Virus record (IMG/VR): IMGVR_UViG_3300035698_006641
Span: 32,846 to 96,845 of that record
Direction: 5' to 3' (one strand)
DNA length: 64,000 nt
Source of the DNA: a virus
The translations under genes were made by a program, and so were the position numbers. How positions within the stretch are numbered: position 1 is the stretch's first letter; each line of letters opens with the position of its first letter. Below, piece after piece: positions 3,891 through 43,429 of this stretch. The notes under the pieces were generated by a model. The model saw nothing but the letters and a program-made list of their open reading frames with translations. It was not told the origin of the DNA and did no database searches.

Positions 3891-3899
3891 GATATTTCC

Positions 3900-7685: not shown

Positions 7686-7690
7686 AAGAT

Positions 7691-8215: not shown

Positions 8216-8634
8216 AACATACTTCCTATTCCAAGGAACATAACTGATTCCTTTCCATTAACTCTAACACCGATAACTCTGTCAGCTATGAACGCAACCT
8301 TAGTCACGGTACTCAAGTTTATCTTAGCTTCTTTAAGGCTGGTTATTGAGAGAGCTGCAAGCTTTTCCATGAATGCATCAGATGTAGTTTTAGTTGGCCC
8401 GAAGATATCAATACCTTCAGAGTTAATCTGACCGCCAAGACTACACAGTGTTTTATTGGAGAGATTCCTCTTCTTTACAACTTTCTTCTCAACCTTTACT
8501 GTAGCCTTAGCCCTCTTAACTTTAGGCTTAACAGGAGGACTTGTTTCAGCTATCTTTGTCTTTGGCGTGACTTTTCGTTTTTGCCTTTTCTGTATCGCCT
8601 TCGCCTTCTCCTCAGGGAGGTATCTTCTCGCCAT
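8212..8634 (-). CDS. Lys-rich basic hypothetical protein
   Basis: histone H1-like basic N-terminal half. Confidence 0.55.
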   Translation of the reverse strand: MARRYLPEEKAKAIQKRQKRKVTPKTKIAETSPPVKPKVKRAKATVKVEKKVVKKRNLSNKTLCSLGGQINSEGIDIFGPTKTTSDAFMEKLAALSITSLKEAKINLSTVTKVAFIADRVIGVRVNGKESVMFLGIGSML

Positions 8635-8645
8635 ATCCGCACTCC

Positions 8646-9227
8646 TTATAGTACCTCTAGATCTCTGTGTTTTATGTAATCTAGTATGTCGGGCAGAGGA
8701 ACAATAGGTCGATCAAAGACCCGCATCAATTCGTCTGCGCTGCAATCCATACGTCCGTCAGAGATCACATCTAGGTTTCCGTGGCAGTGACCATGTAAAT
8801 GCACCGCTCCATAAAATTTACTTGGCCATTCAAGAAGTGGATAGTGGCTGATAATAACAACCTGATTACCCTCTTGCAGCATCGCCATATCTCCGATTCT
8901 GTTTACACGTTGCAGCTTTTCCCTATTCAGGAACTTCATATCGTGGTTCCCGTCTATACACCAGAAGGTATTAACTTTAGCTACTCGCTCCATCGATTCC
9001 CGTAATAGTGCACAGCGCTTTTGATCACCACGGAACATGATGTCCCCGAGGCTTATGATGGTACGATTGTGATGAACCAATTCATTCTCTAGCTGATTGA
9101 TCATATACTCATGGTGCATCTCTGGGCTATCAAATCCGCGCTTCTCCCAAATAAACTCTGCATCATGTCCGTAATGAAGATCTGAGAATATAACTGTATC
9201 GCTGAACTTAGGTCTAATTTTTATCAC
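8646..9227 (-). CDS. calcineurin-like phosphoesterase (AQ1575-like)
   Basis: SDLHYGH, LGD, GNHD, SHYP, HLHGHCHG. Confidence 0.88.
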   Translation of the reverse strand: MIKIRPKFSDTVIFSDLHYGHDAEFIWEKRGFDSPEMHHEYMINQLENELVHHNRTIISLGDIMFRGDQKRCALLRESMERVAKVNTFWCIDGNHDMKFLNREKLQRVNRIGDMAMLQEGNQVVIISHYPLLEWPSKFYGAVHLHGHCHGNLDVISDGRMDCSADELMRVFDRPIVPLPDILDYIKHRDLEVL

Positions 9228-9253
9228 GGTTAAAACCTTTGTTGCTTTCTTTT

Positions 9254-9610
9254 CTAGTAATCATTCCGAAAATCCTCCAAAAGATCGTGTACGAATACTC
9301 CCATAGTGTAGGACCTCGCACGTAACTTTAGTTGAGTTAACGGCAGTTTGTCTGGTGATTTTTTACCAGACCCAATAAAATCATTAGTCGTTCTGTTTTC
9401 GTTCTTCTTGTATTCGACATCTAGTCGATCTTTGTAGAGCGTTTTATATCTATTAGTAGTTACGATCTTGTGAGAAATATTTCTCCAAAAGATCTTTACA
9501 CCAGGGGCTACCCCGGGACTACCAAACAATCCAGCTTGCTCAATAAAGTCACTAGTGTCTGTAGCGTTCGACGCTAGAGCTAATGCACAATATTTTTGGA
9601 TTGGAGACAA
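9254..9610 (-). CDS. hypothetical protein (frame open upstream to an ATA at 9718 with GAGGAG RBS)
   Basis: ORF track plus manual extension. Confidence 0.5.
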   Translation of the reverse strand: MSPIQKYCALALASNATDTSDFIEQAGLFGSPGVAPGVKIFWRNISHKIVTTNRYKTLYKDRLDVEYKKNENRTTNDFIGSGKKSPDKLPLTQLKLRARSYTMGVFVHDLLEDFRNDY

Positions 9611-9806
9611 CTTTAGTTGTTTGTTATTTACAAAGTCCCATCCAGGACTATTTACGAGTATATGAAAGTCTTCCCACTCACTTTCATTATTAATTACTCG
9701 TAATGCTTTTTCTAGTATATCTACTTCTCCTCGTCAGTATTAAACATAAAAAATGGGAACCCAAAAGAGGTTCCCTACATATGTTATTCCAATATATGAG
9801 CGGTAG

Positions 9807-10292
9807 TTAAGTAGAGGTGACTCCAGGTTGGTCCCACGTATTGAAAAGGTTTTTCTTAAGGTAGTTATAACTCGTGTTCTGTAGTTTACTATTAGGAGCG
9901 TTCCATTGTTGTCTAAAGCTGGTTTTAGCATCTTCCATGTTATCACCCCATCCTTTAGTATCAATAGCCCCTAGGATCTTTCTGTGTTTCTTATAGTCTG
10001 GACTAAACCATGCGGCTATATCAGATGCCAGATTGGTACCATCTCCTAGAATCCCGCCTTGCATCCTAACTTTATTATAAGTCCCTTGATTACCAAATAG
10101 CCTCTGCTCAGCCTGACTTCGAGCCACTCTATTTATTATACCACGCATCCAGCTCGTGTCTTGAAACTTAGTAACGAGATTCCTAAGGATTTCCCATTGA
10201 CCACCAGATGCACCTTCAGATAGTCCAGTTTTGACGCTATCTTTTACATCCTGGACCACCCCAGATTCTTTAGTGATAGAGCTTTGGTACAT
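9807..10292 (-). CDS. hypothetical protein, putative virion block
   Basis: coupled (TAATG) to upstream gene. Confidence 0.55.
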   Translation of the reverse strand: MYQSSITKESGVVQDVKDSVKTGLSEGASGGQWEILRNLVTKFQDTSWMRGIINRVARSQAEQRLFGNQGTYNKVRMQGGILGDGTNLASDIAAWFSPDYKKHRKILGAIDTKGWGDNMEDAKTSFRQQWNAPNSKLQNTSYNYLKKNLFNTWDQPGVTST

Positions 10293-18508: not shown

Positions 18509-21500
18509 TTACTCACTTTCTATATTCTTAATACTGTCAGACTCGTGATACAGCCGAATAGCGGCCTCTTCCTGGCGAGGAGCACTAAAGCTTTTGATCT
18601 TCTTTAGGTACCCAATTATACGAGTAGCGTGGCTAATATCTTCAGATCCACATTTGAGACATTTAGTCTGCTTGGAGAACTCAACGTGGCCACAGTCAGG
18701 ATTTTCACAACATGTTCGTAGTACGTTGGTTGTAAAGTATTCACACCCTGAATGAATAGCCAAATTAATAAGAGCTATATACCCTTCTTTAGTGGGATGC
18801 TCATCTAAGTTTAAATGCAGAGCCTGTCCACCATCGAAGTTTTTAATAAACTCTGACCCATGAAGCATAAATTTGTCCACAATAGAGATCTTTGGATCCT
18901 CGACCGGGAACATATATGAGTTATAGCAATCACGAGGAACTCGAAGCCCATCCTGTTTATCCCATCTGGCATTCTTTTTAGCGAGACTTTCAGCTGGAAC
19001 TTGCTCAGTATTAAATTTGTATCCATACTCTTTTTTGGCTGCTTTATTAGCCTCGGAGATGGTCACCAATACTTTGTTAACGAACTCTAGATACTCTCCG
19101 TCCGGGGTAATAGGGATCCCTTGAGACTCTGCGGCCTCTACAATACCATTTACTCCAATAGTGAGAAACTGCTTATCCATATCAACGAACCCTGCATCGT
19201 AGAATGGGTATAGTCCGGAGTCTCTAAATCTCTCAAAGATATGTCGATGGGCCACTTGGTATTTGTGAACACGATCAACAATGCTTTTAAGATTCTTTCC
19301 CTCTTGGACTATTCTACTTATATTCAGGGTTATCACGTTTAACGACCCAGTGGACACCCCACCAGCACCTAGAGAATATGAGAACTCATTAGGTTCATCT
19401 TCGTCCTCTAACAAAGAGTTTTTAAGACGGCAGCAACTTGAGAGGCTATCTACACTCTTGCTGAGATACATGAACATGAGACTACCCTTACTCAAGTCAT
19501 CAGCAATCATGTCAACAAACTCCGGGTCTTTTGGACTAATACCGTCATGCAGGATTGTAGCGGTCTTGACAGGGAACGTGAGTACTGACTTAGTATTCTC
19601 TTCCCGAATCATATCAAGAGCATACTCTTGAAGTTTGTTGTAGGACTTCCAATTTGGTTTAATCTCCGGGATTGACGGGTAATACATGGCACCATACAGA
19701 GCGTCGAAATAAGACCTATCAAAGATACTGATGTTCGTGAAACAGCTTTGGGCGTTTCTTGATCCAGCAGGCTCATTAATTGTGTACAGAAATGTTTCTA
19801 AGCTTTGTTTAATATCCTCTAGATTAGTCTCTAGATAATTATCACCGTAGTCATGTCTAGCAAAAGCATCGAAATGAATTAAAGCCCCAGGGATTCCTAC
19901 AGCACCAGCTACCTGGCTGCTAACCATAAACACAGTGTTAAGCAATTGCCCGACATATGCTTGAAGGTGCTTCGGTGGTCCACTCTTACCTCCAAGAGCC
20001 TTGGTTCCTTTTTCTAACATTGGAAACAGACTTATAGCCGCACAATTATGAACCCACAACCCGTTACATACAAAGGTACTAGACTCGGTTGTTATATCGT
20101 AAATGTAATCCATGGAATCCACAACATTACCCGACGTAATAGGCTTAACAGAGTCTATTGAGCACCACCCGCTTGTATACTTTATATAAGCATCCTTTTC
20201 AATCATGTGCTTAGCCTTAAAGGAGTGCGGTAACTCTGGGCACCCAGGGCGTTTGTTAAAACATATTCCCCAGATGTCGTAGTTTGTGGTGTACTCGGTG
20301 TTGTTCCCAAAAGGCAACGATTGGTGCTGATTTCCTCCGGTGTATCCAAAGTGGTGCAACAGGGTCGTGAGTTGGGTTATAGCTCCTCTTGAGGAAAGTC
20401 TGATATTACCAGACCCGTTGTTTATGTTTCCATCACTGTCCAGAAGACCGGAGATTACCCCCAGGGCAAACCCTTCGGTGAATTGGGTTATGTTTACGGG
20501 AAGAGTTTTGTTACTGGACCCATGCGATATACCTAAGACTTGACTCATAAACCGAACCAACTCGTGAGAATTGATCCGAAGTCTGGTGCAGTCCGTCACG
20601 TGACTCCCAGACGGCTTTACGTCTAACACCGAATGCAGTCCGAATTCCCTGTATGCGATATCTGCCAATTCCTTCAAAGGCTGGGTATCTTTCTGGGTAA
20701 AACATAATTCAGAGGATAAGCCCTCTCCGTCCGGGGACATGTGGTAATTTCCGTCTCCAATAAAGAATCCAACAAAATATCCTACACTAGAGTTAAGATT
20801 AATGTGTTTCCTAAACGGCTTAAAGCTACCGCCCTCTATTGTCTGCGTTAAGTAATAAGAATCAAACTCTTGGATCGGGTTTGACGCAGACTGATACATA
20901 TTGATAGATTCTTGTCCATTAAACTCCAACTCCGAACCAACCCTTAATTGATTCCCCTCAGCGCAATCAGCCGCTACCGTAGTGTCCTCCTTATCCTCAC
21001 TCATTATCATAGGGTGATTATCTGTGACAATTATATCCTCACCGAATGTTGTCTTGACTCGCACCATGTCACGGTGACGGCGCTTCCTTACAAGCCTAGT
21101 TATATTAGTAGTACCGTCCTTATCTTTTATACTCATATCAATTGGATACTTACAATACACCTCATCGTCGATATTGTCTAATTCCTCGAACTCGGAGCAC
21201 AAGGAATAAAGGCTTTCAAATGGACACAGATAATTCACTCCTTTATAAGAGACTGAAATAGTCTCAAACGGACTGTAGGTATATGACGTAGCAAGACTTG
21301 TTTCATCATTGATATAGATCGCATGATCCTCAATGTCTCGTATGTATTGTTTAGCCAGTCTACGACCCTGATCTGGACCAAAGGACTTAACTAATTGTTC
21401 TTGTAGTAAAGCTCGGTTTATCTGAATATCTTCACTTTTATGGGCCTCACCTTTCAATGACGCAATAGTCTTTTGTTCTTGGTTAGCGTTTGGATCCACT

Positions 21501-21610
21501 AAAGCACCAGTTGCCGCATTGTCTGCATCGACATAATTGTCTATTGCATCCAAGTGAAAGCAAGTTTGATCCTTCGTTAGTTCCATCATAGTAATCGATT
21601 TTTTACGCAT
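18509..21610 (-). CDS. nrdD: anaerobic (class III) ribonucleotide reductase, intein-containing (about 621 aa after splicing)
   Basis: SSCCRL finger loop, TGSLNVITLN, EQVPAESLA, C-terminal Zn motif and TRIIGYL glycyl-radical motif. Confidence 0.95.
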   Translation of the reverse strand: MRKKSITMMELTKDQTCFHLDAIDNYVDADNAATGALVDPNANQEQKTIASLKGEAHKSEDIQINRALLQEQLVKSFGPDQGRRLAKQYIRDIEDHAIYINDETSLATSYTYSPFETISVSYKGVNYLCPFESLYSLCSEFEELDNIDDEVYCKYPIDMSIKDKDGTTNITRLVRKRRHRDMVRVKTTFGEDIIVTDNHPMIMSEDKEDTTVAADCAEGNQLRVGSELEFNGQESINMYQSASNPIQEFDSYYLTQTIEGGSFKPFRKHINLNSSVGYFVGFFIGDGNYHMSPDGEGLSSELCFTQKDTQPLKELADIAYREFGLHSVLDVKPSGSHVTDCTRLRINSHELVRFMSQVLGISHGSSNKTLPVNITQFTEGFALGVISGLLDSDGNINNGSGNIRLSSRGAITQLTTLLHHFGYTGGNQHQSLPFGNNTEYTTNYDIWGICFNKRPGCPELPHSFKAKHMIEKDAYIKYTSGWCSIDSVKPITSGNVVDSMDYIYDITTESSTFVCNGLWVHNCAAISLFPMLEKGTKALGGKSGPPKHLQAYVGQLLNTVFMVSSQVAGAVGIPGALIHFDAFARHDYGDNYLETNLEDIKQSLETFLYTINEPAGSRNAQSCFTNISIFDRSYFDALYGAMYYPSIPEIKPNWKSYNKLQEYALDMIREENTKSVLTFPVKTATILHDGISPKDPEFVDMIADDLSKGSLMFMYLSKSVDSLSSCCRLKNSLLEDEDEPNEFSYSLGAGGVSTGSLNVITLNISRIVQEGKNLKSIVDRVHKYQVAHRHIFERFRDSGLYPFYDAGFVDMDKQFLTIGVNGIVEAAESQGIPITPDGEYLEFVNKVLVTISEANKAAKKEYGYKFNTEQVPAESLAKKNARWDKQDGLRVPRDCYNSYMFPVEDPKISIVDKFMLHGSEFIKNFDGGQALHLNLDEHPTKEGYIALINLAIHSGCEYFTTNVLRTCCENPDCGHVEFSKQTKCLKCGSEDISHATRIIGYLKKIKSFSAPRQEEAAIRLYHESDSIKNIESE
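20045..21280 (-). mobile_element. intein in NrdD (412 aa) with LAGLIDADG endonuclease; first residue Thr
   Basis: extein NDETSLATSY|CAAISL; block B VTDNHP; FVGFFIGDG and ISGLLDSDG; terminal YDITT...WVHN|C. Confidence 0.9.
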
Positions 21611-33232: not shown

Positions 33233-34429
33233 CGATTTTGTTACCCAGCAGGCTCTTTATCCTGCTGTTCTAACGCTAGGATGCGTTTGGCATATTCAAC
33301 TTTAAACGTACTGAACTCATGCTCAGTTTTTGTGTGCTTCAGCTGGTTGCAGTTTTTGCAACACGGGGCAATATTACTCGGTTTTATTAGCTCAGCGAAC
33401 CTCTCTAGGTTATCCGCTGAACTAAGCGGGGTCCGGTGGTCAAATGTAGTAACCTCGGTGGTTAGGGTTTCACCACAGTATACACACCTATACCCAACAG
33501 ACTCTAACATCTGAGTAAGATCTTGAGGTTTGATTACACTAGGGAGGTCATCGATCTTTGGATCTACAGTATCGATGAGCATCGATAGCTTCTGAGTTGC
33601 CCTAGAGTTTATTGAGTAAGCCCTCTGACGAAGATAGTTATGTGTAAATGAGTCCGGTCGTTTATTACCGCTGAAGTACTTATCTAAGCACTCATCGCAT
33701 AACTTATGCACGCGACCACCAGAGGTTCCTCGCTTACCAGCTGTATTAGAGAACTCCTTTAGAGACTTTTTTCCGAAGCACTTTGAGCAAATCCTCTGCC
33801 CTGTAGCTTTCAGCTCTTCATTCATCTCATCAATTCCCAGCTCCCTTTCCCCAAATACCCTACTTCTACGAGCATCAACTACCCTAGCAGACTTACACGG
33901 GGTGCACTCTGTATAGGCTGGTTTGCTCAAATCTGAGTTATCTATAGGTACCCCACACGTTTTGCAAGTGGTTCTACGGGTTTCACGCCAGTCAACCTCT
34001 TTAGTAGGGCCCAACATTCTTCGACGTCTTTTAGACTCTCTTATAAAAGATAATTGACACTTCTTACACCTAGGAAAAGACTTCTTGGTCATATCAGAGT
34101 TATCAATATAGGTTCCACAGTCTTTACATGTGGTTCTTCGCGGCCACCCGCCTTGTTGTTTACGTTTTGTTGTTTCCATTGCATCCTTTACAGTCTTACG
34201 TTAGTCCAGGCCATATCATAACCACCATTTGGTGGTCCAGAGCGCTCGTGGACGAATTATAGGCGGTCTGCCCAGTCGTCTGGTCGTTGCACTTTCGACG
34301 GGTTCCCCCGAAACTTAGCTCATGATTACCAAACTACCACACTAGGCTGACTAAGTCAACCAAAAGTAGTAGCACTGTAAAGGCTTCCCATGAATTCACT
34401 CTGTTTTTATTCCCCAATTCCAATATTTT
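33233..34429 (-). mobile_element. group I intron 3 in polA (1197 nt) with HNH ORF
   Basis: exon ends in U (CCT), intron ends in G (AAAATCG); GTGCAACGACCAG and GATATGGCC core elements; 3' GGATAAAGAGCC hairpin. Confidence 0.88.
33241..34179 (-). CDS. intron-encoded HNH homing endonuclease with tandem Zn fingers
   Basis: CVYCG...FDHRTPLS...NIAPCCKNCNQLK; two RRTTCKxCG..IDNSD..C..C repeats. Confidence 0.85.
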   Translation of the reverse strand: METTKRKQQGGWPRRTTCKDCGTYIDNSDMTKKSFPRCKKCQLSFIRESKRRRRMLGPTKEVDWRETRRTTCKTCGVPIDNSDLSKPAYTECTPCKSARVVDARRSRVFGERELGIDEMNEELKATGQRICSKCFGKKSLKEFSNTAGKRGTSGGRVHKLCDECLDKYFSGNKRPDSFTHNYLRQRAYSINSRATQKLSMLIDTVDPKIDDLPSVIKPQDLTQMLESVGYRCVYCGETLTTEVTTFDHRTPLSSADNLERFAELIKPSNIAPCCKNCNQLKHTKTEHEFSTFKVEYAKRILALEQQDKEPAG

Positions 34430-34693
34430 AGGGAAATTGATGGCTGCTCTCTCTTGAGAAGCCATTATACTCCTGCTTGAGCTATGAAAGAAGTACCTTC
34501 TCATCCCAAATGGGTTCTCAGCGTATCCCGGATTATATACCGCGGCACGTTGTCGATCCATGTACTCTTCTAGTTTTGGGTAACTGTTAAAGATACCCTC
34601 AATTACTCGTTCTGCGTAGGCTTTGTCAGCGTCCTTAATCCCAGCAATGGTTAATTGTCGGGCTAGTGAGTAAGCTGAGCGGCCATAGATTAA
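34430..34693 (-). CDS. polA: DNA polymerase A exon 3
   Basis: LIYGRSAYSLA...GYAENPFGMRR...ERAAINFP. Confidence 0.9.
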
Positions 34694-35061
34694 CGGTTTT
34701 GTTATCCTACTGGCTTTTTATCCAATAGTTCTGCACCTTCATTTTAGGTTATAGATGCAGCCCAGCATATCTTTTAACCCAGTAACGGGTCTCCCGGCCT
34801 CGTGGTAGCTGATAGGCGGTCTGCCCCTGCTACTATGCGTTGCCCCTGGATCCCATTCCTGGGAGCCTTCGGTTCTGGTTACCCTCCTCAGGGCTTTCCA
34901 GCTTCATTCCGGGATTTTAATTTGGCTATGAATTCGTTAAAATGTAATAAGTATTTTTGGGTGTCATCCCCAAAACTACTTATTACATTTTAACTTAATC
35001 GGCATTTAGTAACTCCTAATCTCTTTAGTCGTTATCATATAATACCGTCCTTCATTTATCA
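34694..35061 (-). mobile_element. group I intron 2 in polA (368 nt, no ORF)
   Basis: splits motif B LFG|LIYG; U at exon end, terminal G; TCCCGG/CCGGGA P3; GCATA/TATGC P7. Confidence 0.88.
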
Positions 35062-35274
35062 ACCAAATAGTACAATCTTACTTGCACTTCTAAGAGGGTT
35101 CATTTCCCTCTTAACGTACTTCTTTCTGTTCTCCCCATCAGGCACCTTTATTCCAAATGCCCGTATTGCAGTCTCACAGTGAATACACCTGTCATCATCC
35201 TCTGAGATTGATATTAGGTTTTCGTCCCCTGAGACTCTTGCTACTGCTGATATTTCTGCGGCTTGGTAATCTGC
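35062..35274 (-). CDS. polA: DNA polymerase A exon 2
   Basis: ADYQAAEI (motif A), IHCETA, RSASKIVLFG (motif B). Confidence 0.9.
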
Positions 35275-35565
35275 CTTGCATGTTCCCGTGTGGCTCTTTA
35301 TCCACACCTCTCGCTTTTCTTTTGTCATATAGCGAGATTAGACTATTTTTTGACCTCGTAGAGGTCTCCCGGACTCTTGGATTTATTATATTCTACATAC
35401 TGTAGTTTCAAAACCTAGTCGTTGCACGTGTCAGAGGTGTTACCCAAGGACTTCCGTTCGAGTTGCCCTCTTCAGGGGTTCCTCGTTTTTTCCGGGATCA
35501 TAATCCAAGTGATCGCTCACTTGGACGGCGCTAATCTAGTTGATTATACAACTAGACTGTTATTC
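35275..35565 (-). mobile_element. group I intron 1 in polA (291 nt, no ORF)
   Basis: splits motif A VIIG|ADY; U at exon end, terminal G; GTGCAACGACTAG and ATAGTCT (R/S, P7); TCCCGG/CCGGGA P3. Confidence 0.9.
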
Positions 35566-37785
35566 ACCAATAATTACATAGCCAGGAGGTGCTTTAATGC
35601 AACTCCTAATAACGTCGTACCTCGGGTCTAGTAGACCCTTATCCACCAACTCTCTACTATCTGCACCCTCCCATTTGTGCTCGTCAGAGAACATCTCATC
35701 ACTTAACGCGAACTGTTTTCTGATACTAGGTTCGGCGGAGGCACCGGGTAGGTTATTAAGGTTAGGCTTTAAACTTCTAAACCTTTGTGTCTCGGTAGTA
35801 GCTAAGTACGTCCCTCTGATCATTCCATCGTTATCTACACACCCTATCAATCCTGAGTCATATACCTCCTCTACGGATCCATCCTCGTCCTCAATGACAG
35901 ATGGTGGTCTCAAGAAGTTTGTTACAACTTGGTTAATAGCTTTATAGTTGATCACGGCATCCAGAAGATGCTCGTATCCTGGGTTAGCTTGAGATACTAG
36001 GGTTAACGCGTCTCCACTTGTTCCAGGACTTTCACTCATTTTGTCCTCCTCGTCTAGGGAGGCCCATTCCTTAGGGTATTTTCCGGTAGTCTGCGACGGT
36101 TCAAGTCCCAAGGTCTCTATGCCTTCAGGGAGCTTCTTAGTGCAATACCTTTGACCAAATAGATAACCCCTCAATAACTGACTGCCCGGATCAAATCCTT
36201 TCCAGGTCATATCCTCTAGAACACGTAGCAACTCCTCTTGCTTCTCTAAGAATAAAGATTGTAACTTTTTCATTAACGTGAGATCTACAGGCATACCAAC
36301 GTACTCAGGTTCAAAGATCCCAACGTCAGCCTTGCGTACCACGTTTAGGTAAGCGTCCAGCTGCGTCCAATTCTCTTTACCTTCGATTAAGTATCCAGCG
36401 TACCGAGGATCAATAGGGTTATTCCTAAGAGCCTCTTCTAGTTGTGGCCAGATCTGGATAACAGAATCTACATCTTTAGATGAGTATAAGAACATAATGT
36501 TATCCGGTATCTTGGAGTATCCATGTTTCTCTGTGTGAGACTTAAGTCCAGGAGTAGCTTTGATGTATTCTGTTAACCTGTTCTCATACATACCTAGGTC
36601 CGTATACTCTAATGCGCAATATGTTAGACCTACTGACTCAGTCTGTGGCTTAAGTGCATGGTATGCAGTCATTGTGTCAAATGCAAAGTTCTCTCTACAA
36701 TCAATACCAAGTCTCATCAAATGAATTAAGTCAACTTTAAAGTTATGACCTCCCAACTCTACACCGACCATCTCGAATAGAGCTTTCAGATACTCAACTT
36801 TTTCTGCGTGGTCTGGATACGGGACTAAATCAGGGTCAGTCATAGCCACAGTGAACGCCGTGTGTTCCTTAACAGAGAACTGTATATAACGCACTATGTC
36901 ATGCATAACGCCTTCTCTACCGTTCGGGTTGCCCCACTCGGTGTCTACGGCAATCCTTAACGGGTTACCGCGGATATATGCGTCCTGTAAGTATTCCATA
37001 AGAATATCCGTTACTACGGACTTAAGCTCTTTTGCATCTTCAATGAACCTGTAATCTTTATATTCCTGTGGTACGTCCCAAGGCATCTCTTCACCACCCA
37101 AGAGGGCAACTATCCTGATAAGATCAAGTTCTAGAGACATCTCTGAGCTGGGATTAGAGATAAGCTTGTACGGGTCCACTGTGTAGTAGACCGGGATACC
37201 TTCGTACGTCTCATGGGACTGCCCTTGGAAGTTTCCTACAAGCCCTTTAGACCCGTAAAGACCTTTTAATGAACCGGACCCAAGAACCAATATGGCCTCA
37301 GGGTTAATACGGCTTATAGACTCTCTTAGCACAGGTTGAAAAGCTGTGATAAACGGAACAAGTAGTTTCCCACCTTTCGGATAGAATGGAACTGCGTATG
37401 TGCAGTATATATCTTCCGGTTCCAATTCTGGAACTCTTCCGACAAGGGTGTCAACTATGAGCTCTAATTCAGGTACTGGCAGTCTGTTCTGCTGTGTACC
37501 TTCAATAGACGGGTGTGGGCAGACTATTAACAGCTTAGTTTGCCTAGACGGGTGTGGCTTTAGGTACTTTCCTCTAAGAGCATCATCCGATACTTGGTTG
37601 TTAATCTCTTTTGGCCAACCCCACAGTCCACTAGGAATTGTAGTGCACTCGATTTGTTTTAGTTTTTTAGTAAAGTCGGCTGTAAACGACTGTTTCTCGA
37701 TTAAGACTTTCTGAATAAACTGATCATCAGTTAAATCTAACTCTTGCGCTATACTGTGCAATGATGGTTTTAATAAATCAGCCAT
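35566..37785 (-). CDS. polA: DNA polymerase A exon 1: UDG-like domain, 3'-5' exonuclease and start of polymerase domain (spliced product about 998 aa)
   Basis: AVDTE, GHNFKVD, FDTM, YSSKDV; TETQRFRSLKPNLNNLP; IRSCIKAPPG. Confidence 0.92.
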
Positions 37786-37822: not shown

Positions 37823-38107
37823 TTAATCTTCAGCCTCTAATGAGGCAGAGACATCAGAGTCATACATAATAACGTAATCAACCCCATCCCTCTTGATGTC
37901 TACTCCTCCGTACTCCGGCAAGAGGACAACGTCATCTACATTAAGAAGATTAGGTACAAGTATTCCGTTGATTACCCTTCCTGGGCCAACGGCTACTACA
38001 GTGCCTTGATTCTTCTTAATTCCGCTAGAGACAAAAATGCCTCCAATCTCCTCTTCAACTGGGTCCTTTTTAATTAAGACCCGATTCTGTGTTGGTTTAA
38101 TATTAAT
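37823..38107 (-). CDS. groES: co-chaperonin GroES (probable ATT start)
   Basis: NIKPTQNRVLIKK, GGIFV, GTVVAVGPG, VLLPEYGG; GGAG 7 nt before ATT gives 94 aa. Confidence 0.88.
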   Translation of the reverse strand: MNIKPTQNRVLIKKDPVEEEIGGIFVSSGIKKNQGTVVAVGPGRVINGILVPNLLNVDDVVLLPEYGGVDIKRDGVDYVIMYDSDVSASLEAED

Positions 38108-38123
38108 ACTTAATCTCCACTTT

Positions 38124-38489
38124 TTAGTACATAACCCTATCTCGCATCCGTCTCCCGATCTCTGCGGACTCATTTCTGCATAAAAGATAAATCCAGAACG
38201 GCCCATACTGGTAGACATCTAGAAGTCTTTCCATTACTACCATGATACCTGGGATGAATCTCCTATTGCCGATAAGCTCAGACACTATATTGACATCGAT
38301 ACCTTTGACAGCATCGTCAATAACATATCTACTGAGTCTCATTTCCGGGTGATCTTTCGTAGGAACGAATTCACAGATCGCTGCATCAACTAAATCTTTA
38401 GCCTTTTCTCCATTTTCAGTATGAGGCTCGGTGCAGCTTATAATCTGAGGGAACATTTTGATTACAAGATTATAGACTTTTTCATACAT
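38124..38489 (-). CDS. hypothetical protein following the E2-like gene
   Basis: overlaps the E2-like stop codon. Confidence 0.55.
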   Translation of the reverse strand: MYEKVYNLVIKMFPQIISCTEPHTENGEKAKDLVDAAICEFVPTKDHPEMRLSRYVIDDAVKGIDVNIVSELIGNRRFIPGIMVVMERLLDVYQYGPFWIYLLCRNESAEIGRRMRDRVMY

Positions 38490-39234
38490 GAGTAAGGTCC
38501 CAAGCTTTATTTAAAACAGCTGCTGGGATAGAAGGAGCTATTACATCAAACATAGGCAATACATCCGCCTCGGTATCTACACAGGGCATGAGTTGTTCCC
38601 CAGACTCCGGATCGAATCGAACCAGTTTATTACATTTCATGGAATTATCCAGATTCCATAGATCTGAATTCCAACGATTAGCCTCCCATGCTGTGAAAGT
38701 GGCTTCAGAGACGTCATAAAGACTGTGACAATTCTCTAGTTCTCCGGTACACAACCTACCATCACCGTGAATATTGGCCAGTGGATAGTTTAGGAATTTT
38801 TTAATACCGGTTGCGCCACAGTCATGAGTCATACCAAAAAGGAATACCATCAAATGCTCCTCACTGCGAGATAGAGGGAACTTTATTGAACTAGGGACCT
38901 CTATGATCATTACAGTGGGTACGGGTACTTTGAACTGACGACTGACGCTAGCTATACCATCTGAGAAGCACGGGGTCTCAAAGATCCCGGTTTCTCCGTT
39001 TCCCTCTGAAAGAGTCCATCTTGCCTTGATGCTAAACTCAGAAACAGCTCTGATACAAAACATTCTATCATTACTTAAAACAAACTGAGTATCTTTACAC
39101 ATCGGTATACTAAAATCAGGAACAGATGTAATTAGTCTCACAACAGCTTCTGTGTTCAAAACTGGAGACTCTACGGTATCACGTATGAAAGCAACCCCAT
39201 TTGGCTTTATAATTAACTCTTGATTATCTGTCAT
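38482..39234 (-). CDS. prokaryotic E2-like protein (Prok-E2_D / PRTRC protein B-like)
   Basis: YPLANIHGDGRLCTG with candidate catalytic Cys, then W.N.DL. Confidence 0.72.
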   Translation of the reverse strand: MTDNQELIIKPNGVAFIRDTVESPVLNTEAVVRLITSVPDFSIPMCKDTQFVLSNDRMFCIRAVSEFSIKARWTLSEGNGETGIFETPCFSDGIASVSRQFKVPVPTVMIIEVPSSIKFPLSRSEEHLMVFLFGMTHDCGATGIKKFLNYPLANIHGDGRLCTGELENCHSLYDVSEATFTAWEANRWNSDLWNLDNSMKCNKLVRFDPESGEQLMPCVDTEADVLPMFDVIAPSIPAAVLNKAWDLTHV

Positions 39235-39235
39235 T

Positions 39236-39922
39236 TTACTTAATCTCCATTTTACTTTGATTGATACAATCTTGGATTGTTACTGTTTGTACCGCGGATG
39301 GAACCCATCGATACTCTATTGGTGACTTATTAAATACTGGAGTATCTCGCACAAACGAGGACTTTTGAGACCAGAACCACAATAACCCTAACGCGTAGGT
39401 TGCTGCAAACTGATTAGCAATAGCCAACTGTGGGTCGGATACCTGGGCCTCTCCGGTACAGGATCTTGTTGGATCCCCGGAAATATTGTCCATAGACCCT
39501 GCGTAACGAACCCTATAATCCATAGGGCTTCCATACAACGTAGGCTCATAGTACGAAGCGGATGCTGATTCATACGTATTTCCACAAATAAATGCCGGCA
39601 CCCCGAAAATATCAGAGGACTGCAGTGCTACTTTTCTTGCTGGCATGTTATCCGGACAGGCAAAAATCATGTCTGTTCCTTCTAAGTCAGTAGGAGTCAC
39701 AACGTATGAGTTGTGCGGTATAATACCTGGGTACATGATAGACATAGCTTCTGCCTTGCATTTACCTATAAACCTTTTCGGGAATAACTGACGATCTAAA
39801 TTCCCTTTTTCTAGGATGTCCTCGTCCCATACATGAACCTCTGGACATTCTAATACATTCTTCATTAGAACTGGGATTAGGTAAGACCCAATTCCCCCAG
39901 CTCCGATTACATCAATTCTCAA
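39236..39922 (-). CDS. E1/ThiF-family ubiquitin-like activating enzyme
   Basis: VIGAGGIGS, DEDILEKGNLDRQ, GKCKA, CPDN..AR, SCTGEA...QLAIAN. Confidence 0.92.
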   Translation of the reverse strand: MRIDVIGAGGIGSYLIPVLMKNVLECPEVHVWDEDILEKGNLDRQLFPKRFIGKCKAEAMSIMYPGIIPHNSYVVTPTDLEGTDMIFACPDNMPARKVALQSSDIFGVPAFICGNTYESASASYYEPTLYGSPMDYRVRYAGSMDNISGDPTRSCTGEAQVSDPQLAIANQFAATYALGLLWFWSQKSSFVRDTPVFNKSPIEYRWVPSAVQTVTIQDCINQSKMEIK

Positions 39923-41056
39923 TTAAGCTCCTTCTTTCTTTTCTGATTGCATATAAAAGTCTATCAGTGCCTCACGGTAGTCCGAGGCATAATCAGCCAA
40001 GGCTTGAAACACTGACGGATCAATAGTGGACAATGTTACGCTCCAATCTAGAGCAGTAATCACTTCATCAAACTGTTCACGTGCTAATTTAGACAGGCCC
40101 CATACGTCCATAGCGGATTCCATTAGGCCGAGAACTATCTCTGGTCCAAGCTCCGTATCTTCGAGTGAGTCCATGTAGTCATTATAGTCATACTCACTAT
40201 CCTCGTCCTCTTTCTGCCATCGTGCAGCTTGAGCACTTGACGGGTTGTAGGAGTTCGCTGGGGATGGAGGAAATGAACCATAAGCCTGATTAGGGTTGTA
40301 AGTACTGCGGTTACCCGGAGACCATGTAGAAAATCCGAACTTCTTAGAGGCAACCATTCCAAATGTTCCGTATCTAACGGGAGCAACAACCTTTTTAGTC
40401 ATTTGGTCTTTCCACTCTTTTGGTGGCTCTGGAAGATTCTTAATAGCTAGGACTCCGTTGTCAACGTACGGAACAAACCCAAGAATATCTGGTTCATAAC
40501 ATATCTTGCGTACAACACACCTTCCATGGAATGATGCCTCCGTTGTATCTAAATCTCCAATGGTGTAATGAAACCCTTCAGTTTCAATTTCATCTTTGTA
40601 GTCTGTGGATGATTGAAAGGCACTCATTGTGCAGTGGTGGTGCGCTGATCCTACGTGTCCGAATCCATCTTTAGCCAATGCGGCCTTCATAACCTCAAAG
40701 TTAGGATCCTTGTCATTCTCAGTAGAAGACGCCCCTGAGATGATAAACTGGGGCATGACTACAGCTTTCCACTGTTTGTCACTTTTCCGGTAGTAAAGCC
40801 TTAGTTGAGACTCACATGCATATTCATCAAATGACCACTTGAAGAACCCAAGAATCTCTCTAAACAAAGTAGGAGGGAGTATAGATCCGGTCCATTCTAG
40901 ATATAGGTCTTCTGTATTAGATTCAGGTATAACCGCAGCTATATCCCCAAACCACTGTCCCCAAGTTACGTTAGGAAGAACAGCATGACCATCAACTGAT
41001 AAAATACTCCCGTCAGCAATGATTCCATGTGGTGGTGCTTCTTTAGGTTCTGGCAT
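39923..41056 (-). CDS. JAB/MPN+ metallopeptidase (Prok-JAB / PRTRC protein A-like)
   Basis: E...PQ...GSAHHHCTMSAFQSSTDYKDE JAMM motif; ATG 41056 with GGAG. Confidence 0.85.
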   Translation of the reverse strand: MPEPKEAPPHGIIADGSILSVDGHAVLPNVTWGQWFGDIAAVIPESNTEDLYLEWTGSILPPTLFREILGFFKWSFDEYACESQLRLYYRKSDKQWKAVVMPQFIISGASSTENDKDPNFEVMKAALAKDGFGHVGSAHHHCTMSAFQSSTDYKDEIETEGFHYTIGDLDTTEASFHGRCVVRKICYEPDILGFVPYVDNGVLAIKNLPEPPKEWKDQMTKKVVAPVRYGTFGMVASKKFGFSTWSPGNRSTYNPNQAYGSFPPSPANSYNPSSAQAARWQKEDEDSEYDYNDYMDSLEDTELGPEIVLGLMESAMDVWGLSKLAREQFDEVITALDWSVTLSTIDPSVFQALADYASDYREALIDFYMQSEKKEGA

Positions 41057-41774
41057 CCATAATCTCCTGTACATTCCAGTCACTAATCTCTCCGTGATCA
41101 GAAATAAATTGTTCAATCTCGTATATGATTTCATCTATCAGTGATAAATCATTTCCGTCAGCAGCTTCACTAACGTCATAGCTATTTCCTAGTGTGTCTG
41201 TATAGCTAACTGAGGTGACGCCGCCATCGTAGTCTTCAGAGTTGCATATCTCACAATTATCATCGTAGTACTCCATATCACTTGATGATTCTCCATAATA
41301 CCCATTATCCTCTAAACACCCCCATAAACTACAACCGTCTTCATCTCCGAGCTCTCCAGGCATAAAAGTAATTTCACCAGAGACAGTCTCATCTTGATAA
41401 GCGTAAATACCGCAATACTCATTAGTCCTCTTAATTTCAGCTGCGACTACTACTCTCCCACGAGGTTGACCACCGTCAGCATCAGTTGGAAGAGTTGGAC
41501 CACCACGATCGCCAGGATACCAACGGAAAGCAGAGTTTCTATAGTTCTCGTAGTCTGGTACTAGTGATAACAATTTATCAATGTCACCCAGCTCTGAGAC
41601 CTTAGCCCCTTTTTTCCGCCAGAACATCGAGGCTATTGATTGTGGATTCCTTAGGGAACCTTCGTCTAACGTGAAATATAATTCTCCACCCCAATACGGC
41701 GTTAATGCCCGTACCAACTCAGAATTTGATTCTCCTAGTTGTTCACACTTTTCGTGTATTTCATCTCTTGTCAT
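41043..41774 (-). CDS. acidic hypothetical protein inside the Ubl operon
   Basis: ORF between Ubl and JAB, overlapping the JAB start. Confidence 0.65.
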   Translation of the reverse strand: MTRDEIHEKCEQLGESNSELVRALTPYWGGELYFTLDEGSLRNPQSIASMFWRKKGAKVSELGDIDKLLSLVPDYENYRNSAFRWYPGDRGGPTLPTDADGGQPRGRVVVAAEIKRTNEYCGIYAYQDETVSGEITFMPGELGDEDGCSLWGCLEDNGYYGESSSDMEYYDDNCEICNSEDYDGGVTSVSYTDTLGNSYDVSEAADGNDLSLIDEIIYEIEQFISDHGEISDWNVQEIMDART

Positions 41775-41799
41775 ACTTTATCCCTTATCTTTAATCCAT

Positions 41800-41836
41800 A
41801 AAATAATAGACCCCACTACCCTTAGGTAGCGGGGCC
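41800..41836 (-). terminator. intrinsic terminator after Ubl gene
   Basis: GGCCCCGCTACC-TAAG-GGTAGTGGGGTC followed by TATTATTTT. Confidence 0.7.
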
Positions 41837-41857
41837 ATTTAGCGCTTAATTAATCAA

Positions 41858-42313
41858 TTATCCAAGCAGGCCTTTGTCATGTGCTTTGGTGCTCAGGACA
41901 ATGTCATCTCCGTCAGCGATCTCTACGTCCCCAAGAACAGGGGAACCGTTAAGACTCAAGCTCATGTCATCACCGGTACCAAAAGTCATCTGGACCAGCT
42001 GAGAAGCTAGGATTTCAGCCGCTGTACTACCGATGGATTCAAGGTCAAACTGAACCTCGTTTACACCGTTGCGAATAGTAACTACAGCATCTGCACCTTT
42101 GTCATGTGCTTTGGTGCTCAGGACAATTTCATCTCCGTCCTCGATAAGGAAGGAAGAGGACTCGAAGGTTCCGTTAACCTCAGCGGCCATGTCGTCCCCG
42201 ATACCGAACATCTGCTGGATTACAGAGGATCCCAGGAGGGACTTAACATCGGTGATGTTGAGGTTGGCTTCGTCAATGGTGACATCACTAGCGGCGCAAT
42301 AAATAGTAATCAT
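41858..42313 (-). CDS. tandem di-ubiquitin-like (beta-grasp) protein
   Basis: two ~75-aa repeats with MoaD/ThiS-like (V/L)NG...I.DGD(E/D)IVL, each ending STKAHDKG. Confidence 0.85.
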   Translation of the reverse strand: MITIYCAASDVTIDEANLNITDVKSLLGSSVIQQMFGIGDDMAAEVNGTFESSSFLIEDGDEIVLSTKAHDKGADAVVTIRNGVNEVQFDLESIGSTAAEILASQLVQMTFGTGDDMSLSLNGSPVLGDVEIADGDDIVLSTKAHDKGLLG

Positions 42314-42394: not shown

Positions 42395-43429
42395 TCATGC
42401 CTCGATACTAAGTACTAAGTCGTCAACTTGCTCCTGTGTATAATCAGCAATATCAACTCCTTTTGGAAATTGTAAGAACTTTGTATTTGGCCAATTCTCG
42501 GTGCGTGTGAGTATCTTAGACCAATTTTTCGAACTTACGTCAGGATCGAAAGCGAATACTACAAAACCATTATTGGCTATTATTGTATCCTCTATCAGTT
42601 CCGCTTGTTTTTGTGTTAGATGCTTCCCGAAGGTACACACCCCATGTTCCCTACCCACTCTTGCCATGTCAAAGAATCCCTCACAGAGTACTATGAAGTC
42701 CTTCTTTACATTGTGGATGTTATACGCCACGGTCCTCGTTGGGCCCTGGATTAAATACTTCGGAGTCTTTTTACTAGGAGGGGTAGAATTTCCTGTATGA
42801 TAGTTGAAGTATCTTGTTTGCCACGCCACCATTTGTTCTTGACCATTTACAATTGAGTAAATAGGTATAAGAAGTCTATTGGAGTCATGGATGTTTTCAC
42901 TATTTGATTCTGTAACCCACCTAAGCCCCCATATATCACTAAGGTCTTGAACACAAAACCCGCGTTGGGTCTCTAAGTATCCTCTTAATAAGTGGTCTTG
43001 TGGTAGTTCAGAAATAGGTATTGATTCACCTGGAATTTCAGTTATATACCTTGTCTTGGTAATGGTGGGTCTCTTGACCACTGAATGAATTGAGTCTGGA
43101 TGAATCAAATCACTAAATACCTCATTAAAGTCATCTAGCTCATTGCACCCCTCATTATAGCAACATATAAGGTACTTAAGTGTAAACCCTTCATACGTTT
43201 GGTTCCACATGTGGTTAACCCACAGTCTGTTACGTGTGTCGCCACAGACAGGGCAACAGACGGCATAATATTCACCTGAGTCAATAATGTCTAGGTAGTT
43301 TGGATACTTAGTGGGTGAGGTAAAGGCTCTTCGTCTTTTAACCGCGATAAACGGCTCACCTTCGCTGCAAATCCTAACATCTCCGAATACTGACTCGAGT
43401 CTATCATAGAGACTTTGGTTAAGGGCCAT
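42395..43429 (-). CDS. DNA primase (Zn finger plus TOPRIM)
   Basis: CPVC...CYNEGC; VLCEGFFD; FDPD. Confidence 0.85.
   Translation of the reverse strand: MALNQSLYDRLESVFGDVRICSEGEPFIAVKRRRAFTSPTKYPNYLDIIDSGEYYAVCCPVCGDTRNRLWVNHMWNQTYEGFTLKYLICCYNEGCNELDDFNEVFSDLIHPDSIHSVVKRPTITKTRYITEIPGESIPISELPQDHLLRGYLETQRGFCVQDLSDIWGLRWVTESNSENIHDSNRLLIPIYSIVNGQEQMVAWQTRYFNYHTGNSTPPSKKTPKYLIQGPTRTVAYNIHNVKKDFIVLCEGFFDMARVGREHGVCTFGKHLTQKQAELIEDTIIANNGFVVFAFDPDVSSKNWSKILTRTENWPNTKFLQFPKGVDIADYTQEQVDDLVLSIEA

What the first reader, a model, noticed from the sequence alone, without database searches (positions are those of the whole stretch)
38482..42313. Phage-encoded ubiquitin-like conjugation operon (di-Ubl, unknown, JAB, E1, E2)
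Seen: five co-oriented genes, the last four abutting or overlapping. They encode a tandem beta-grasp protein whose units end in K-G, an acidic unknown, a JAMM peptidase (E...HxH...S..D), a ThiF/E1 (GxGGxG, D.D....NL.RQ, SC candidate catalytic Cys, no Zn CxxC pairs) and an E2-like protein (PLxNIxxxGxLCxG). Established: this family set matches the PRTRC-type prokaryotic Ub-like cassettes, and bacterial E1-E2-JAB-Ubl systems (Bil, CBASS Cap2/Cap3) conjugate proteins in phage defence. No ThiS/MoaD sulfur-pathway genes and no ParB gene are nearby. Inference: the phage carries its own protein-tagging pathway inside its replication module, perhaps to tag host defence proteins, regulate replisome or virion proteins, or counter host Ubl defence. 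I know of no functional characterisation of such a phage pathway.
Basis: partly seen in the sequence, partly recalled or inferred. Interest (0 to 1): 0.92.

Follow-up and report, generated by a model that had tools for sequence, protein, structure and literature searches.

The report
Phage-encoded ubiquitin-like tagging gene cassette
An uncultured phage carries, inside its DNA-replication genes, a full set of ubiquitin-like tagging genes (a two-unit tag precursor, a trimming protease, an activating enzyme and a conjugating enzyme), and the same set recurs in at least 17 other uncultured phage genomes, so phages seem to own a protein-tagging pathway so far studied only as a bacterial anti-phage defence.

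Summary

- **Ubl:** the model matches ISG15 and linear di-ubiquitin (Foldseek E 7e-8).
- **E1:** it passes the Pfam ThiF cut-off and has an invariant Cys155.
- **JAB:** it keeps every JAMM residue, but scores below the Pfam cut-off.
- **E2:** a confident model (pLDDT 89.5) resembles UBC/UEV folds only weakly (Z 4.0-4.8). It carries an invariant P-x-x-N-x7-C-x-G motif, and 10 of 26 homologues hit Prok-E2_D.

The same families (Ubl, E2, E1, JAB) co-occur in 17 IMG/VR phage contigs and one MAG scaffold. No GenBank phage matched JAB or E2. Scores against PRTRC models fall far below their cut-offs, and no ParB is present.

In this family the Ubl ends in Lys-Ala (114 of 115 members). The window's copy is the single Lys-Gly exception.

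I read it as a real phage Ubl conjugation pathway. Activity and targets are untested. The scan had already noted the di-Ubl gene of this same window.

The parts
41858..42313 (-). di-Ubl precursor (151 aa): two ThiS/ubiquitin-like beta-grasp units (residues 1-73 and 74-148), each ending STKAHDKG, plus a 3-residue tail LLG
   Evidence: AF2 model pLDDT 71.4 with two beta-grasp units and disordered tails at 69-74 and 145-151. Foldseek: ISG15 E 7e-8, linear di-ubiquitin TM up to 0.53, 82 PDB hits at E<=1e-3. Family of 234 proteins; 5 of 42 di-Ubl relatives hit Pfam ThiS.
41871..41920 (.). DNA of the unit-2 C-terminal tail; direct repeat of 42096-42145 (47 of 50 nt, spacing 225 nt = 75 codons)
   Evidence: Last 17 codons are 47/51 nt identical, against 75/165 nt for the rest of the units.
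42096..42145 (.). DNA of the unit-1 C-terminal tail; second copy of the repeat
41809..41836 (-). terminator-like hairpin (12 pairs, 8 G-C, then a T-rich run) between the di-Ubl gene and the enzyme genes
   Evidence: A consensus scan only; the region's total number of such sites equals that in shuffles.
41043..41774 (-). acidic protein of unknown function (243 aa), coupled to JAB; sits where relatives have the conserved 'var' protein before JAB
   Evidence: No Pfam, PHROG, PADLOC or NCBIfam hit. Atlas model pLDDT 0.36. No detectable homology to the var family.
39923..41056 (-). JAMM/JAB metallopeptidase (377 aa from M27; alternative ATG at 41134 gives 403 aa) with a C-terminal extension of about 180 aa
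   Evidence: Invariant E82, H139, H141, S149, D152 in 10 homologues. Prok-JAB E 0.005, below cut-off; 6 of 10 homologues hit it. TIGR03735 PRTRC_A weak. Atlas: viral clusters at 0.95-0.96 and a PRTRC protein A cluster by structure, TM 0.72 by that row.
39236..39922 (-). minimal E1-like adenylating enzyme (228 aa, one ThiF domain, TTG start)
   Evidence: Pfam ThiF 40.1 bits against cut-off 28.1. Profile against PDB: UBA2 5e-11, UBA5 8e-11, BubCD 1e-7, ThiF 4e-7, Cap2 4e-7. Invariant GxGG, D33, D35, N41, R44, Q45, K56, D91, N92, R96, C155.
38482..39234 (-). E2-like protein (250 aa), candidate catalytic Cys162 in PLANIHGDGRLCTG
   Evidence: 26 homologues with invariant P151, N154, C162, G164. 10 of 26 hit Pfam Prok-E2_D, best 9.8e-6. 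AF2 pLDDT 89.5. VIA-align: E2/UEV chains dominate the top ranks at Z 4.0-4.8, about 115 residues aligned. Foldseek against PDB found nothing.
38124..38489 (-). 121-aa protein of unknown function, start overlapping the E2 stop by 8 nt; sits where relatives have a small gene after E2
   Evidence: Relatives have a 110-190 aa gene directly after E2, overlapping its stop by 4 nt in most loci. No sequence similarity among these small proteins.

Best explanation
This is a phage-borne ubiquitin-like protein conjugation pathway. Proposed steps: (1) the di-Ubl gene is transcribed, and a hairpin behind it may lower read-through into the enzyme genes, giving more tag than enzyme. (2) The JAMM peptidase removes the LLG tail, and probably also cuts between the units after Lys-Gly 72-73, yielding one or two modifiers with a free C-terminus. 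(3) The 228-aa E1, presumably a homodimer like MoeB, ThiF or UBA5, adenylates that C-terminus and takes it onto Cys155. (4) The tag passes to Cys162 of the E2-like protein. (5) The E2 transfers it to lysines of target proteins without a recognisable E3, as in Bil and CBASS; the two orphan partner proteins may act as adaptors or substrates. (6) The JAB can also reverse the mark. Shown here: domain identities, conserved catalytic residues, co-occurrence of the families, translational coupling and phage location. Inferred: every chemical step, cleavage between the units, and the targets. My guess for the biological role is tagging of host or phage proteins during the replication phase (host takeover or counter-defence), because the cassette sits in replication/recombination modules in the phage groups examined here.
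For: Components. Invariant Cys in both E1 (C155, 10 sequences at 28-50% identity to the window's E1) and E2 (C162, 26 sequences). In all 12 newly scanned IMG/VR loci that reach far enough past the Ubl, E2, E1, the var protein and JAB follow it in one order; with the five loci found earlier that makes 17 contigs, plus a Limisphaerales MAG scaffold. A TARA contig has JAB-E1-E2 in the window's order. Ubl C-termini: an invariant Lys, then Ala (114 of 115) or Gly (the window), then a non-conserved tail of 0-16 residues; 20 proteins end exactly at Lys-Ala. This resembles the Bil Ubl, which has a conserved Gly followed by up to nine non-conserved residues (PMC10557695). Both units keep the tail motif (45 of 47 inner units Lys-Ala), and in the window the tail DNA is homogenised. 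Coupled gene junctions. No rhodanese in the record.
Against: No biochemical data exist. The E2 fold match is weak (best Z 4.8; Foldseek against PDB gave no hit at E<=0.001; the profile found no PDB sequence). JAB and E2 are below Pfam cut-offs. The region around E1 Cys155 does not align to solved E1s, so its catalytic role rests on conservation and approximate position only. A C-terminal Ala in nearly all relatives is unusual for an E1 substrate. ThiF-family enzymes also do non-conjugating chemistry (MccB and TcdA rank high). Conservation of the inner tail could reflect structure rather than cleavage. The viral record is only 66% complete, so missing partner genes cannot be excluded.
Confidence: 0.62

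Rival explanations
1. The cassette performs adenylation-dependent chemistry without protein conjugation. The Ubl would be a sulfur carrier (thiocarboxylate) or a substrate or scaffold for a small-molecule, tRNA or DNA modification, as with ThiS/MoaD, MccB or TcdA-type ThiF enzymes.
For: The E1 is a bare ThiF domain. Some Ubl relatives hit Pfam ThiS (5 of 42). MccB, TcdA and Uba4 are among the best PDB profile hits. GenBank annotates the crAss-like homologue as a thiamine biosynthesis protein.
Against: An E2-like protein with an invariant Cys and a JAMM peptidase are present in every locus examined. The Ubl ends in Lys-Ala or Lys-Gly rather than Gly-Gly. No rhodanese domain is in the record, and none of the cassette proteins matched a sulfur-pathway family other than the E1's weak, sub-threshold ThiF/MoeB-type NCBIfam hits. 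Poly-Ubl precursors with trimmed tails fit a modifier.
Confidence: 0.12
2. The cassette is mainly a counter-defence device against host Ubl-based immunity (Bil, type II CBASS). The JAB would strip host Ubl or cGAS conjugates, and the phage Ubl/E1/E2 would compete with or mis-tag the host machinery rather than tag dedicated targets.
For: Host Bil and CBASS use E1/E2/JAB chemistry against phages (PMC11601596, PMC10557695, PMC10097602). The phage genes sit among the replication genes. The E1 gives PADLOC hits to the E1 part of Cap2 models (3e-8).
Against: The phage proteins are not close to Bil or Cap2/Cap3: there are no PADLOC hits for Ubl, JAB or E2. All four core genes plus two partner slots are kept in every locus examined, which suggests a self-contained pathway. 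Hosts are unknown, so co-occurrence with host Bil or CBASS could not be tested.
Confidence: 0.12
3. It is a PRTRC-like mobile-element module whose role is maintenance or partition of the element (an addiction or plasmid-like function) rather than action on the infection cycle. It would be carried passively by these phages.
For: The best NCBIfam hits of E1, E2 and JAB are PRTRC_ThiF, PRTRC_B and PRTRC_A, and a PRTRC protein A cluster appears by structure. PRTRC is annotated on plasmids, genomic islands, ICEs and prophages. Related locus L005 has two ORFs with ParB-like DGxHR motifs a few kb downstream (read from the ORF translations, not tested).
Against: All PRTRC scores are far below the cut-offs and no ParB is in the window's record. 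The cassette lies inside the replication module of a phage that also carries a large terminase. The function of PRTRC is itself unknown, so this is a classification more than a mechanism.
Confidence: 0.1

Closest known systems
PRTRC (ParB-related, ThiF-related cassette; TIGR03734-03741) and the Prok-E2_D / Prok-JAB cassettes of Iyer, Burroughs and Aravind (PMC1779556)
   Same: The same three enzyme families (ThiF-type E1, E2 with a conserved Cys, JAB) are encoded together on a mobile element. These are the best-scoring named families for E1, E2 and JAB.
   Different: Scores are 5 to 10 times below the model cut-offs. There is no ParB and no match to PRTRC_C, D or E. The cassette has its own Ubl family with a Lys-Ala/Gly end and poly-Ubl forms, two extra partner genes, a JAB with a 180-aa C-terminal extension, and it sits in phage replication modules.
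Bil (BilABCD) bacterial ISG15-like anti-phage system
   Same: Separate Ubl, E2, JAB and E1 genes. The Ubl can have tandem beta-grasp domains and a conserved C-terminal residue followed by a non-conserved tail that a JAB removes. No E3 (PMC10557695, PMC11601596). The window's di-Ubl model matches ISG15 best.
   Different: Bil E1 is a large IAD-AAD-CYS protein, whereas this one is a 228-aa single domain. No PADLOC hit for Ubl, E2 or JAB. It is encoded by the phage, not the host. The Ubl end is Lys-Ala in nearly all relatives.
Type II CBASS Cap2/Cap3
   Same: E1 adenylation domain similarity (PADLOC E1-E2 models 3e-8; PDB Cap2 4e-7). JAB partner.
   Different: Cap2 is an E2-E1 fusion that conjugates the cGAS-like enzyme itself. 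Here E1 and E2 are separate, a dedicated Ubl exists, and I saw no CD-NTase-like gene in the cassette or beside it.
Bub (6E/DUF6527) pathway
   Same: A diverged bacterial Ubl/E1/E2 pathway with 1-3 beta-grasp domains. BubCD and BubB appear among sequence and fold hits.
   Different: Bub E1 and E2 lack catalytic Cys and work through oxyesters, and Bub has a DUF6527 serine protease (PMC11601596). Here both Cys are invariant and the peptidase is JAMM.
crAss-like phage gp76-gp79 block (Bacteroides phage crAss001)
   Same: ThiF (Pfam 8e-16) and a Prok-JAB-like metalloprotease (4.9e-4) lie side by side directly after the primase gene, as in the window. gp78 carries a P-x-x-N-x7-C-T-G string like the E2 motif.
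   Different: Only the JAMM motif region and the E1 N-terminus align. The E2 and Ubl relationships are not significant. gp76 has a 160-aa N-terminal extension.

Membership tests
Pfam ThiF (PF00899), E1-like adenylation domain | Score above the gathering cut-off; GxGxxG, NLxRQ and DN nucleotide- and Mg-binding motifs | tested here: met
   40.1 bits against 28.1. The motifs are invariant in 10 homologues. PDB E1 hits down to 5e-11.
E1 enzymes that form a thioester | Catalytic Cys on the crossover loop or Cys domain | tested here: inconclusive
   Cys155 (SCTGEA) is invariant, but this region does not align to solved E1s and no E1 model was made.
JAMM/MPN+ metallopeptidase (Pfam Prok-JAB PF14464) | E...HxH-x7-S-x2-D metal and catalytic motif | tested here: met
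   E82, H139, H141, S149 and D152 are invariant in 10 homologues.
JAMM/MPN+ metallopeptidase (Pfam Prok-JAB PF14464) | Score above the Pfam gathering cut-off (25 bits) | tested here: not met
   17 bits, E 0.005. 6 of 10 homologues hit at E<=0.05, all below the cut-off.
E2/UBC superfamily (Pfam Prok-E2_D PF14460) | Score above the Pfam gathering cut-off | tested here: not met
   Window protein 14.7 bits against 25. 10 of 26 homologues hit at E<=0.01, best 9.8e-6.
E2/UBC superfamily | UBC fold (helix, four-stranded meander, loop with the catalytic Cys, then helices) with a (H)PN motif 7-8 residues before the Cys | tested here: inconclusive
   P151-x-x-N154-x7-C162 is invariant. In the model (pLDDT 89.5) the secondary-structure order fits. 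VIA-align top ranks are almost all E2/UEV, but Z is only 4.0-4.8. Foldseek against PDB and the profile against PDB found nothing.
Ubiquitin-like beta-grasp modifiers | Beta-grasp fold with a flexible C-terminal tail | tested here: met
   Foldseek: ISG15 7e-8, linear di-ubiquitin, 82 hits at E<=1e-3. The tails have pLDDT below 50.
ThiS/MoaD sulfur carriers | C-terminal Gly-Gly and a sulfur-transfer partner | tested here: not met
   The ends are Lys-Gly (window) or Lys-Ala (114 of 115). No rhodanese in the record. The window Ubl has no ThiS Pfam hit, though 5 of 42 relatives do.
PRTRC system (TIGR03734-03741) | ThiF, protein A and protein B above the model cut-offs | tested here: not met
   PRTRC_ThiF 29.6 against 144.75; PRTRC_A 14.5 against 101.8; PRTRC_B has no hit for the window E2 and 12.7-13.1 against 131.45 for relatives.
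PRTRC system (TIGR03734-03741) | ParB homologue and proteins C, D and E in the cassette | tested here: not met
   No ParB_N in the 96.8-kb record. No NCBIfam hit to PRTRC_C, D or E for any cassette protein.
Bil (BilABCD) | E1 with IAD-AAD-CYS architecture; matches to defence-system models | tested here: not met
   The E1 is 228 aa with one adenylation domain. PADLOC gives no hit for Ubl, JAB or E2.
Type II CBASS Cap2/Cap3 | E2-E1 fusion next to a CD-NTase | tested here: not met
   E1 and E2 are separate genes. PADLOC hits cover only the first 60-80 residues of the E1. Absence of a CD-NTase rests on the family scans of the cassette and its neighbours, not on a dedicated search.

The most novel reading that the evidence does not exclude
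Phages of several unrelated lineages carry their own ubiquitin-like conjugation system, with polyubiquitin-style precursors and an unusual Lys-Ala C-terminus. They use it during the replication phase to tag host or phage proteins. This would be a viral counterpart of the bacterial Bil and CBASS conjugation systems, possibly extending to the JAB-ThiF block of crAss-like gut phages.
Probability: 0.5. Interest if true: 0.85.

Novelty: new variant of a known kind. Interest (0 to 1): 0.74.

Why it matters
Ubiquitin-like conjugation in bacteria has so far been shown as a host weapon against phages (Bil, type II CBASS, and probably Bub). A complete E1/E2/JAB/Ubl set that is conserved in phage genomes and nearly absent from bacterial genomes would put the same chemistry on the viral side of the conflict. 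It would also give a small, separable enzyme set (228-aa E1, 250-aa E2, 75-aa tag) for biochemistry.

The family has unusual features that test what an E1 can accept: a Lys-Ala C-terminus and di- or tri-Ubl precursors. It may also explain the unannotated JAB-ThiF block next to the primase gene of crAss-like phages, which GenBank labels as thiamine biosynthesis.

No deposited phage genome (INPHARED, 50,697 records) matched JAB or E2, so work would start from synthetic genes.

Tried and rejected
- **Nucleotide search:** blastn of the region against GenBank phages found no match.
- **Word-index protein searches:** for E2 and di-Ubl as single sequences these returned only the query itself. Single-protein scans of IMG/VR for E2, E1 and P0027 found nothing. 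Several alignments were too divergent to seed scans, and one seeded scan with the E2 alignment confirmed no relative.
- **Metagenome scan:** it gave only two short TARA contigs.
- **E2 fold and sequence:** Foldseek of the E2 model against PDB gave no hit at E<=0.001. The E2 profile against PDB sequences gave none.
- **JAB profile against PDB:** only a non-significant STAMBP (AMSH) hit, E 0.14.
- **crAss001 comparisons:** window E2, acidic protein and Ubl against gp75, gp78 and gp79 were not significant by BLASTP or hhalign. The E2 profile found nothing in the crAss001 genome. I therefore rejected the idea that crAss001 has a demonstrable homologous E2 or Ubl; the gp78 motif is a lead only.
- **Orphan partner proteins:** the acidic protein against the conserved 'var' family showed no homology. 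The small post-E2 proteins show no similarity to each other or to the 121-aa ORF. The Atlas gave nothing for the acidic protein.
- **Bacterial genomes:** the scan with the JAB profile found nothing.
- **Phage taxonomy:** the strongly conserved phrog_1735 protein is too widespread to place the phage.

Full report
**1. What is there**

The minus strand of 38124-42313 carries six co-oriented ORFs just downstream of the primase gene (42395-43429):
- di-Ubl, 42313-41858, 151 aa
- acidic protein, 41774-41043, 243 aa
- JAB, 41134 or 41056 to 39923
- E1, 39922-39236, 228 aa, TTG start
- E2-like, 39234-38482, 250 aa
- a 121-aa ORF, 38489-38124

A GroES homologue (Cpn10, 4.5e-16) and a PolA fragment follow.

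The junctions, read from the sequence:
- The acidic gene's end overlaps the JAB ATG at 41056 by 14 nt, with AGGAG 7-8 nt upstream.
- The JAB stop TAA is followed directly by the E1 TTG, with GAAGGAG upstream.
- One base separates the E1 stop from the E2 ATG.
- The E2 stop and the 121-aa ORF start overlap (ATGTATGA).

So the last five genes are translationally coupled. The JAB start at M27 is also supported by the alignment with a marine homologue and by the Atlas record, which begins at residue 27.

The record is a 96.8-kb IMG/VR virus contig, estimated 66% complete. The window also encodes a DnaB-type helicase, DNA ligase, UvsX-like recombinase, NrdD, SbcCD and a large terminase.

**2. The Ubl**

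The two units (residues 1-73 and 74-148) each end IVLSTKAHDKG; LLG follows the second. No library names the window protein.

Relatives found through neighbouring genes gave a profile that retrieved 234 proteins. Among the 119 examined there are 69 single, 45 double and 1 triple forms. Five of 42 di-Ubl relatives hit Pfam ThiS, best 2.5e-6.

With a 42-sequence alignment, AlphaFold2 gave a model of pLDDT 71.4. It has two beta-grasp units and low-confidence tails at 69-74 and 145-151. Foldseek matched ISG15 (E 7e-8) and linear di-ubiquitin over both domains, with 82 PDB hits at E<=1e-3.

The family's C-terminal motif is E-T-x-A-N-x-K followed by Ala in 114 of 115 proteins. The only Gly is the window's own. 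After that residue come 0-16 non-conserved residues, and 20 proteins end exactly at Lys-Ala. Inner units keep the motif too (45 of 47).

In the window the tail DNA is nearly identical between units: 47 of 50 nt, and 47/51 nt for the last 17 codons against 75/165 for the rest.

A 12-bp hairpin with a T-rich run follows the gene. That scan finds as many such sites in shuffled sequence, so the hairpin is only suggestive.

**3. The E1**

- Pfam ThiF scores above the cut-off (40.1 against 28.1 bits).
- A 10-sequence profile hits SUMO E1 UBA2 (5e-11), UBA5, MccB, UBA3, TcdA, BubCD, ThiF and Cap2 over the adenylation core.
- Invariant residues include GxGG, D33, D35, N41, R44, Q45, K56, D91-N92, R96 and Cys155 in G/S-C-T-G-E-A.
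- There are no CxxC zinc pairs.
- The part that holds Cys155 does not align to solved E1s, so its role is inferred.

**4. The JAB**

E82, H139, H141, S149 and D152 (numbered from M27) are invariant in 10 homologues. This is the full JAMM signature. Pfam Prok-JAB stays below its cut-off (17 bits; 6 of 10 homologues at E<=0.05).

The Atlas places the protein in clusters that are 89-97% viral (score 0.95-0.96). By structure it lies next to a 'PRTRC genetic system protein A' cluster in which 73% of members carry Prok-JAB.

**5. The E2-like protein**

An exhaustive phmmer search found 26 proteins at E<=1e-3. P151, N154, C162 and G164 are invariant within L-P-L-P-N-x-Y-x-D-G-x-L-C-T-G. From my own knowledge, this resembles the HPN...C signature of UBC enzymes.

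Ten of the 26 hit Pfam Prok-E2_D, best 9.8e-6. The window protein itself scores E 0.026.

The AF2 model is confident (pLDDT 89.5, pTM 0.80). Its order of elements is a helix, a long beta-meander, the Cys loop and then helices. Foldseek found nothing in the PDB. VIA-align against 48,161 chains put E2 and UEV proteins in almost all of the top 20 ranks: FTS, Pex4, Ubc8, UbcH5, UBE2G2 and Tsg101, with BubB lower down. However, Z was only 4.0-4.8 over about 115 residues. I count the fold as probable, not proven.

In BFVD the model matches only uncharacterised proteins of uncultured phages, best 9.6e-9.

**6. Conservation of the set**

- A TARA contig has JAB-E1-E2 in the window's order, with E1 50% and JAB about 40% identical.
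- In all 12 newly scanned IMG/VR loci that reach far enough past the Ubl, the order is Ubl, E2, room for a small gene, E1, the conserved 'var' protein, then JAB. A thirteenth locus (L033) is cut off after E2.
- With the five loci found earlier, that makes 17 complete IMG/VR contigs of 41-113 kb.
- A 125-kb Limisphaerales MAG scaffold also has the cassette.

Compared with these, the window has the blocks [partner + JAB] and [E2 + small partner] exchanged around E1. The var proteins are homologous to each other (1e-8 to 1e-22), but not detectably to the window's acidic protein. The small post-E2 proteins share only position.

Two limited pattern scans of 185,579 species genomes found only that one MAG scaffold. 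tblastn of JAB and E2 against 50,697 GenBank phage records found nothing.

**7. Relation to known systems**

- *PRTRC.* The best named hits are PRTRC_ThiF, PRTRC_A and PRTRC_B, all far below their cut-offs. There is no ParB_N and no rhodanese in the record.
- *CBASS.* PADLOC finds only the E1 part of Cap2 models.
- *Bil.* It shares the gene content and the 'conserved residue plus tail' Ubl end, but its E1 is a multidomain IAD-AAD-CYS protein (PMC11601596, PMC10557695).
- *Bub.* It lacks catalytic cysteines and works through oxyesters. Here both cysteines are invariant.
- *crAss-like phages.* The E1 finds only crAss-like phages in GenBank. In crAss001 a ThiF (gp76) and a Prok-JAB-like protease (gp77) lie right after the primase. 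Homology of gp78 and gp79 to the E2 and Ubl is not significant, so this is only a lead.
- *Literature.* Searches found no description of a phage Ubl conjugation pathway. One preprint notes a phage protein family resembling UBA5. Another notes PRTRC protein B as a mutational hotspot in a Phocaeicola prophage.

**8. Reading**

The most economical explanation is a working Ubl conjugation pathway:
1. JAB trims, and perhaps splits, the precursor.
2. E1 adenylates the Ubl and carries it on Cys155.
3. E2 Cys162 receives it and passes it to targets without an E3.
4. JAB can reverse the mark.

All chemical steps and the targets are inferred. Rivals are non-conjugating adenylation chemistry, a counter-defence device against host Ubl immunity, and a PRTRC-like maintenance module.

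**9. Verdict**

This is a new, phage-specific variant of the prokaryotic E1/E2/JAB/Ubl cassettes. It is rare, known only from metagenomes, and uncharacterised. Interest 0.74.

Noticed in passing
window 33241-37785: The PolA ORF (741 aa) stops at ...VIIGE just before motif A, and a 312-aa HNH endonuclease ORF (33241-34179) lies downstream. The polymerase seems split by inserted elements.
   Followed up: no
window 37823-38218: A GroES-like co-chaperonin (Pfam Cpn10 4.5e-16; PHROG co-chaperonin GroES 3e-13). Its longest ORF overlaps the end of the 121-aa gene by 95 nt, so its true start is probably further downstream.
   Followed up: partly
L001 (Bacteroides phage crAss001, MH675552.1) 2238-7460: Block gp79-gp75 after the primase: gp77 is Prok-JAB-like (4.9e-4), and gp76 is ThiF (8e-16) with a 160-aa N-terminal extension. 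gp78 has the string IPINNFENFQTPCTG, like the E2 motif. The first ~90 residues of gp79 end in KSG, which I judged by eye to be a possible Ubl-like end. GenBank labels gp76 as a thiamine biosynthesis protein.
   Followed up: partly
L006 8418-9269: A 283-aa HNH endonuclease gene is inserted between E1 and the var gene in this locus. Loci L007/L015 and L032 show a similar-sized extra gap between E1 and var, which I did not inspect.
   Followed up: no
L005 5152-9812: Downstream of the cassette lie four ORFs that I did not test: 5152-6288, 6314-7231, 7501-8661 and 8820-9812. The second and fourth contain ParB-like DGQHRL and DGMHRV strings. By eye the first and third look like a RecT-type recombinase and a PD-(D/E)XK exonuclease.
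   Followed up: no
   Followed up: no
window 18509-21610: A 1033-aa NrdD-like anaerobic ribonucleotide reductase matches its PHROG in four separate stretches. This may mean an insertion inside the gene.
   Followed up: no
window 3900-5933: A 677-aa protein matches phrog_1735 (unknown function) at 1.7e-247. It is 47-48% identical to proteins of Bacillus and Clostridioides phages, and 499 GenBank phage records match it. It is a very widespread phage protein without a known function.
   Followed up: partly
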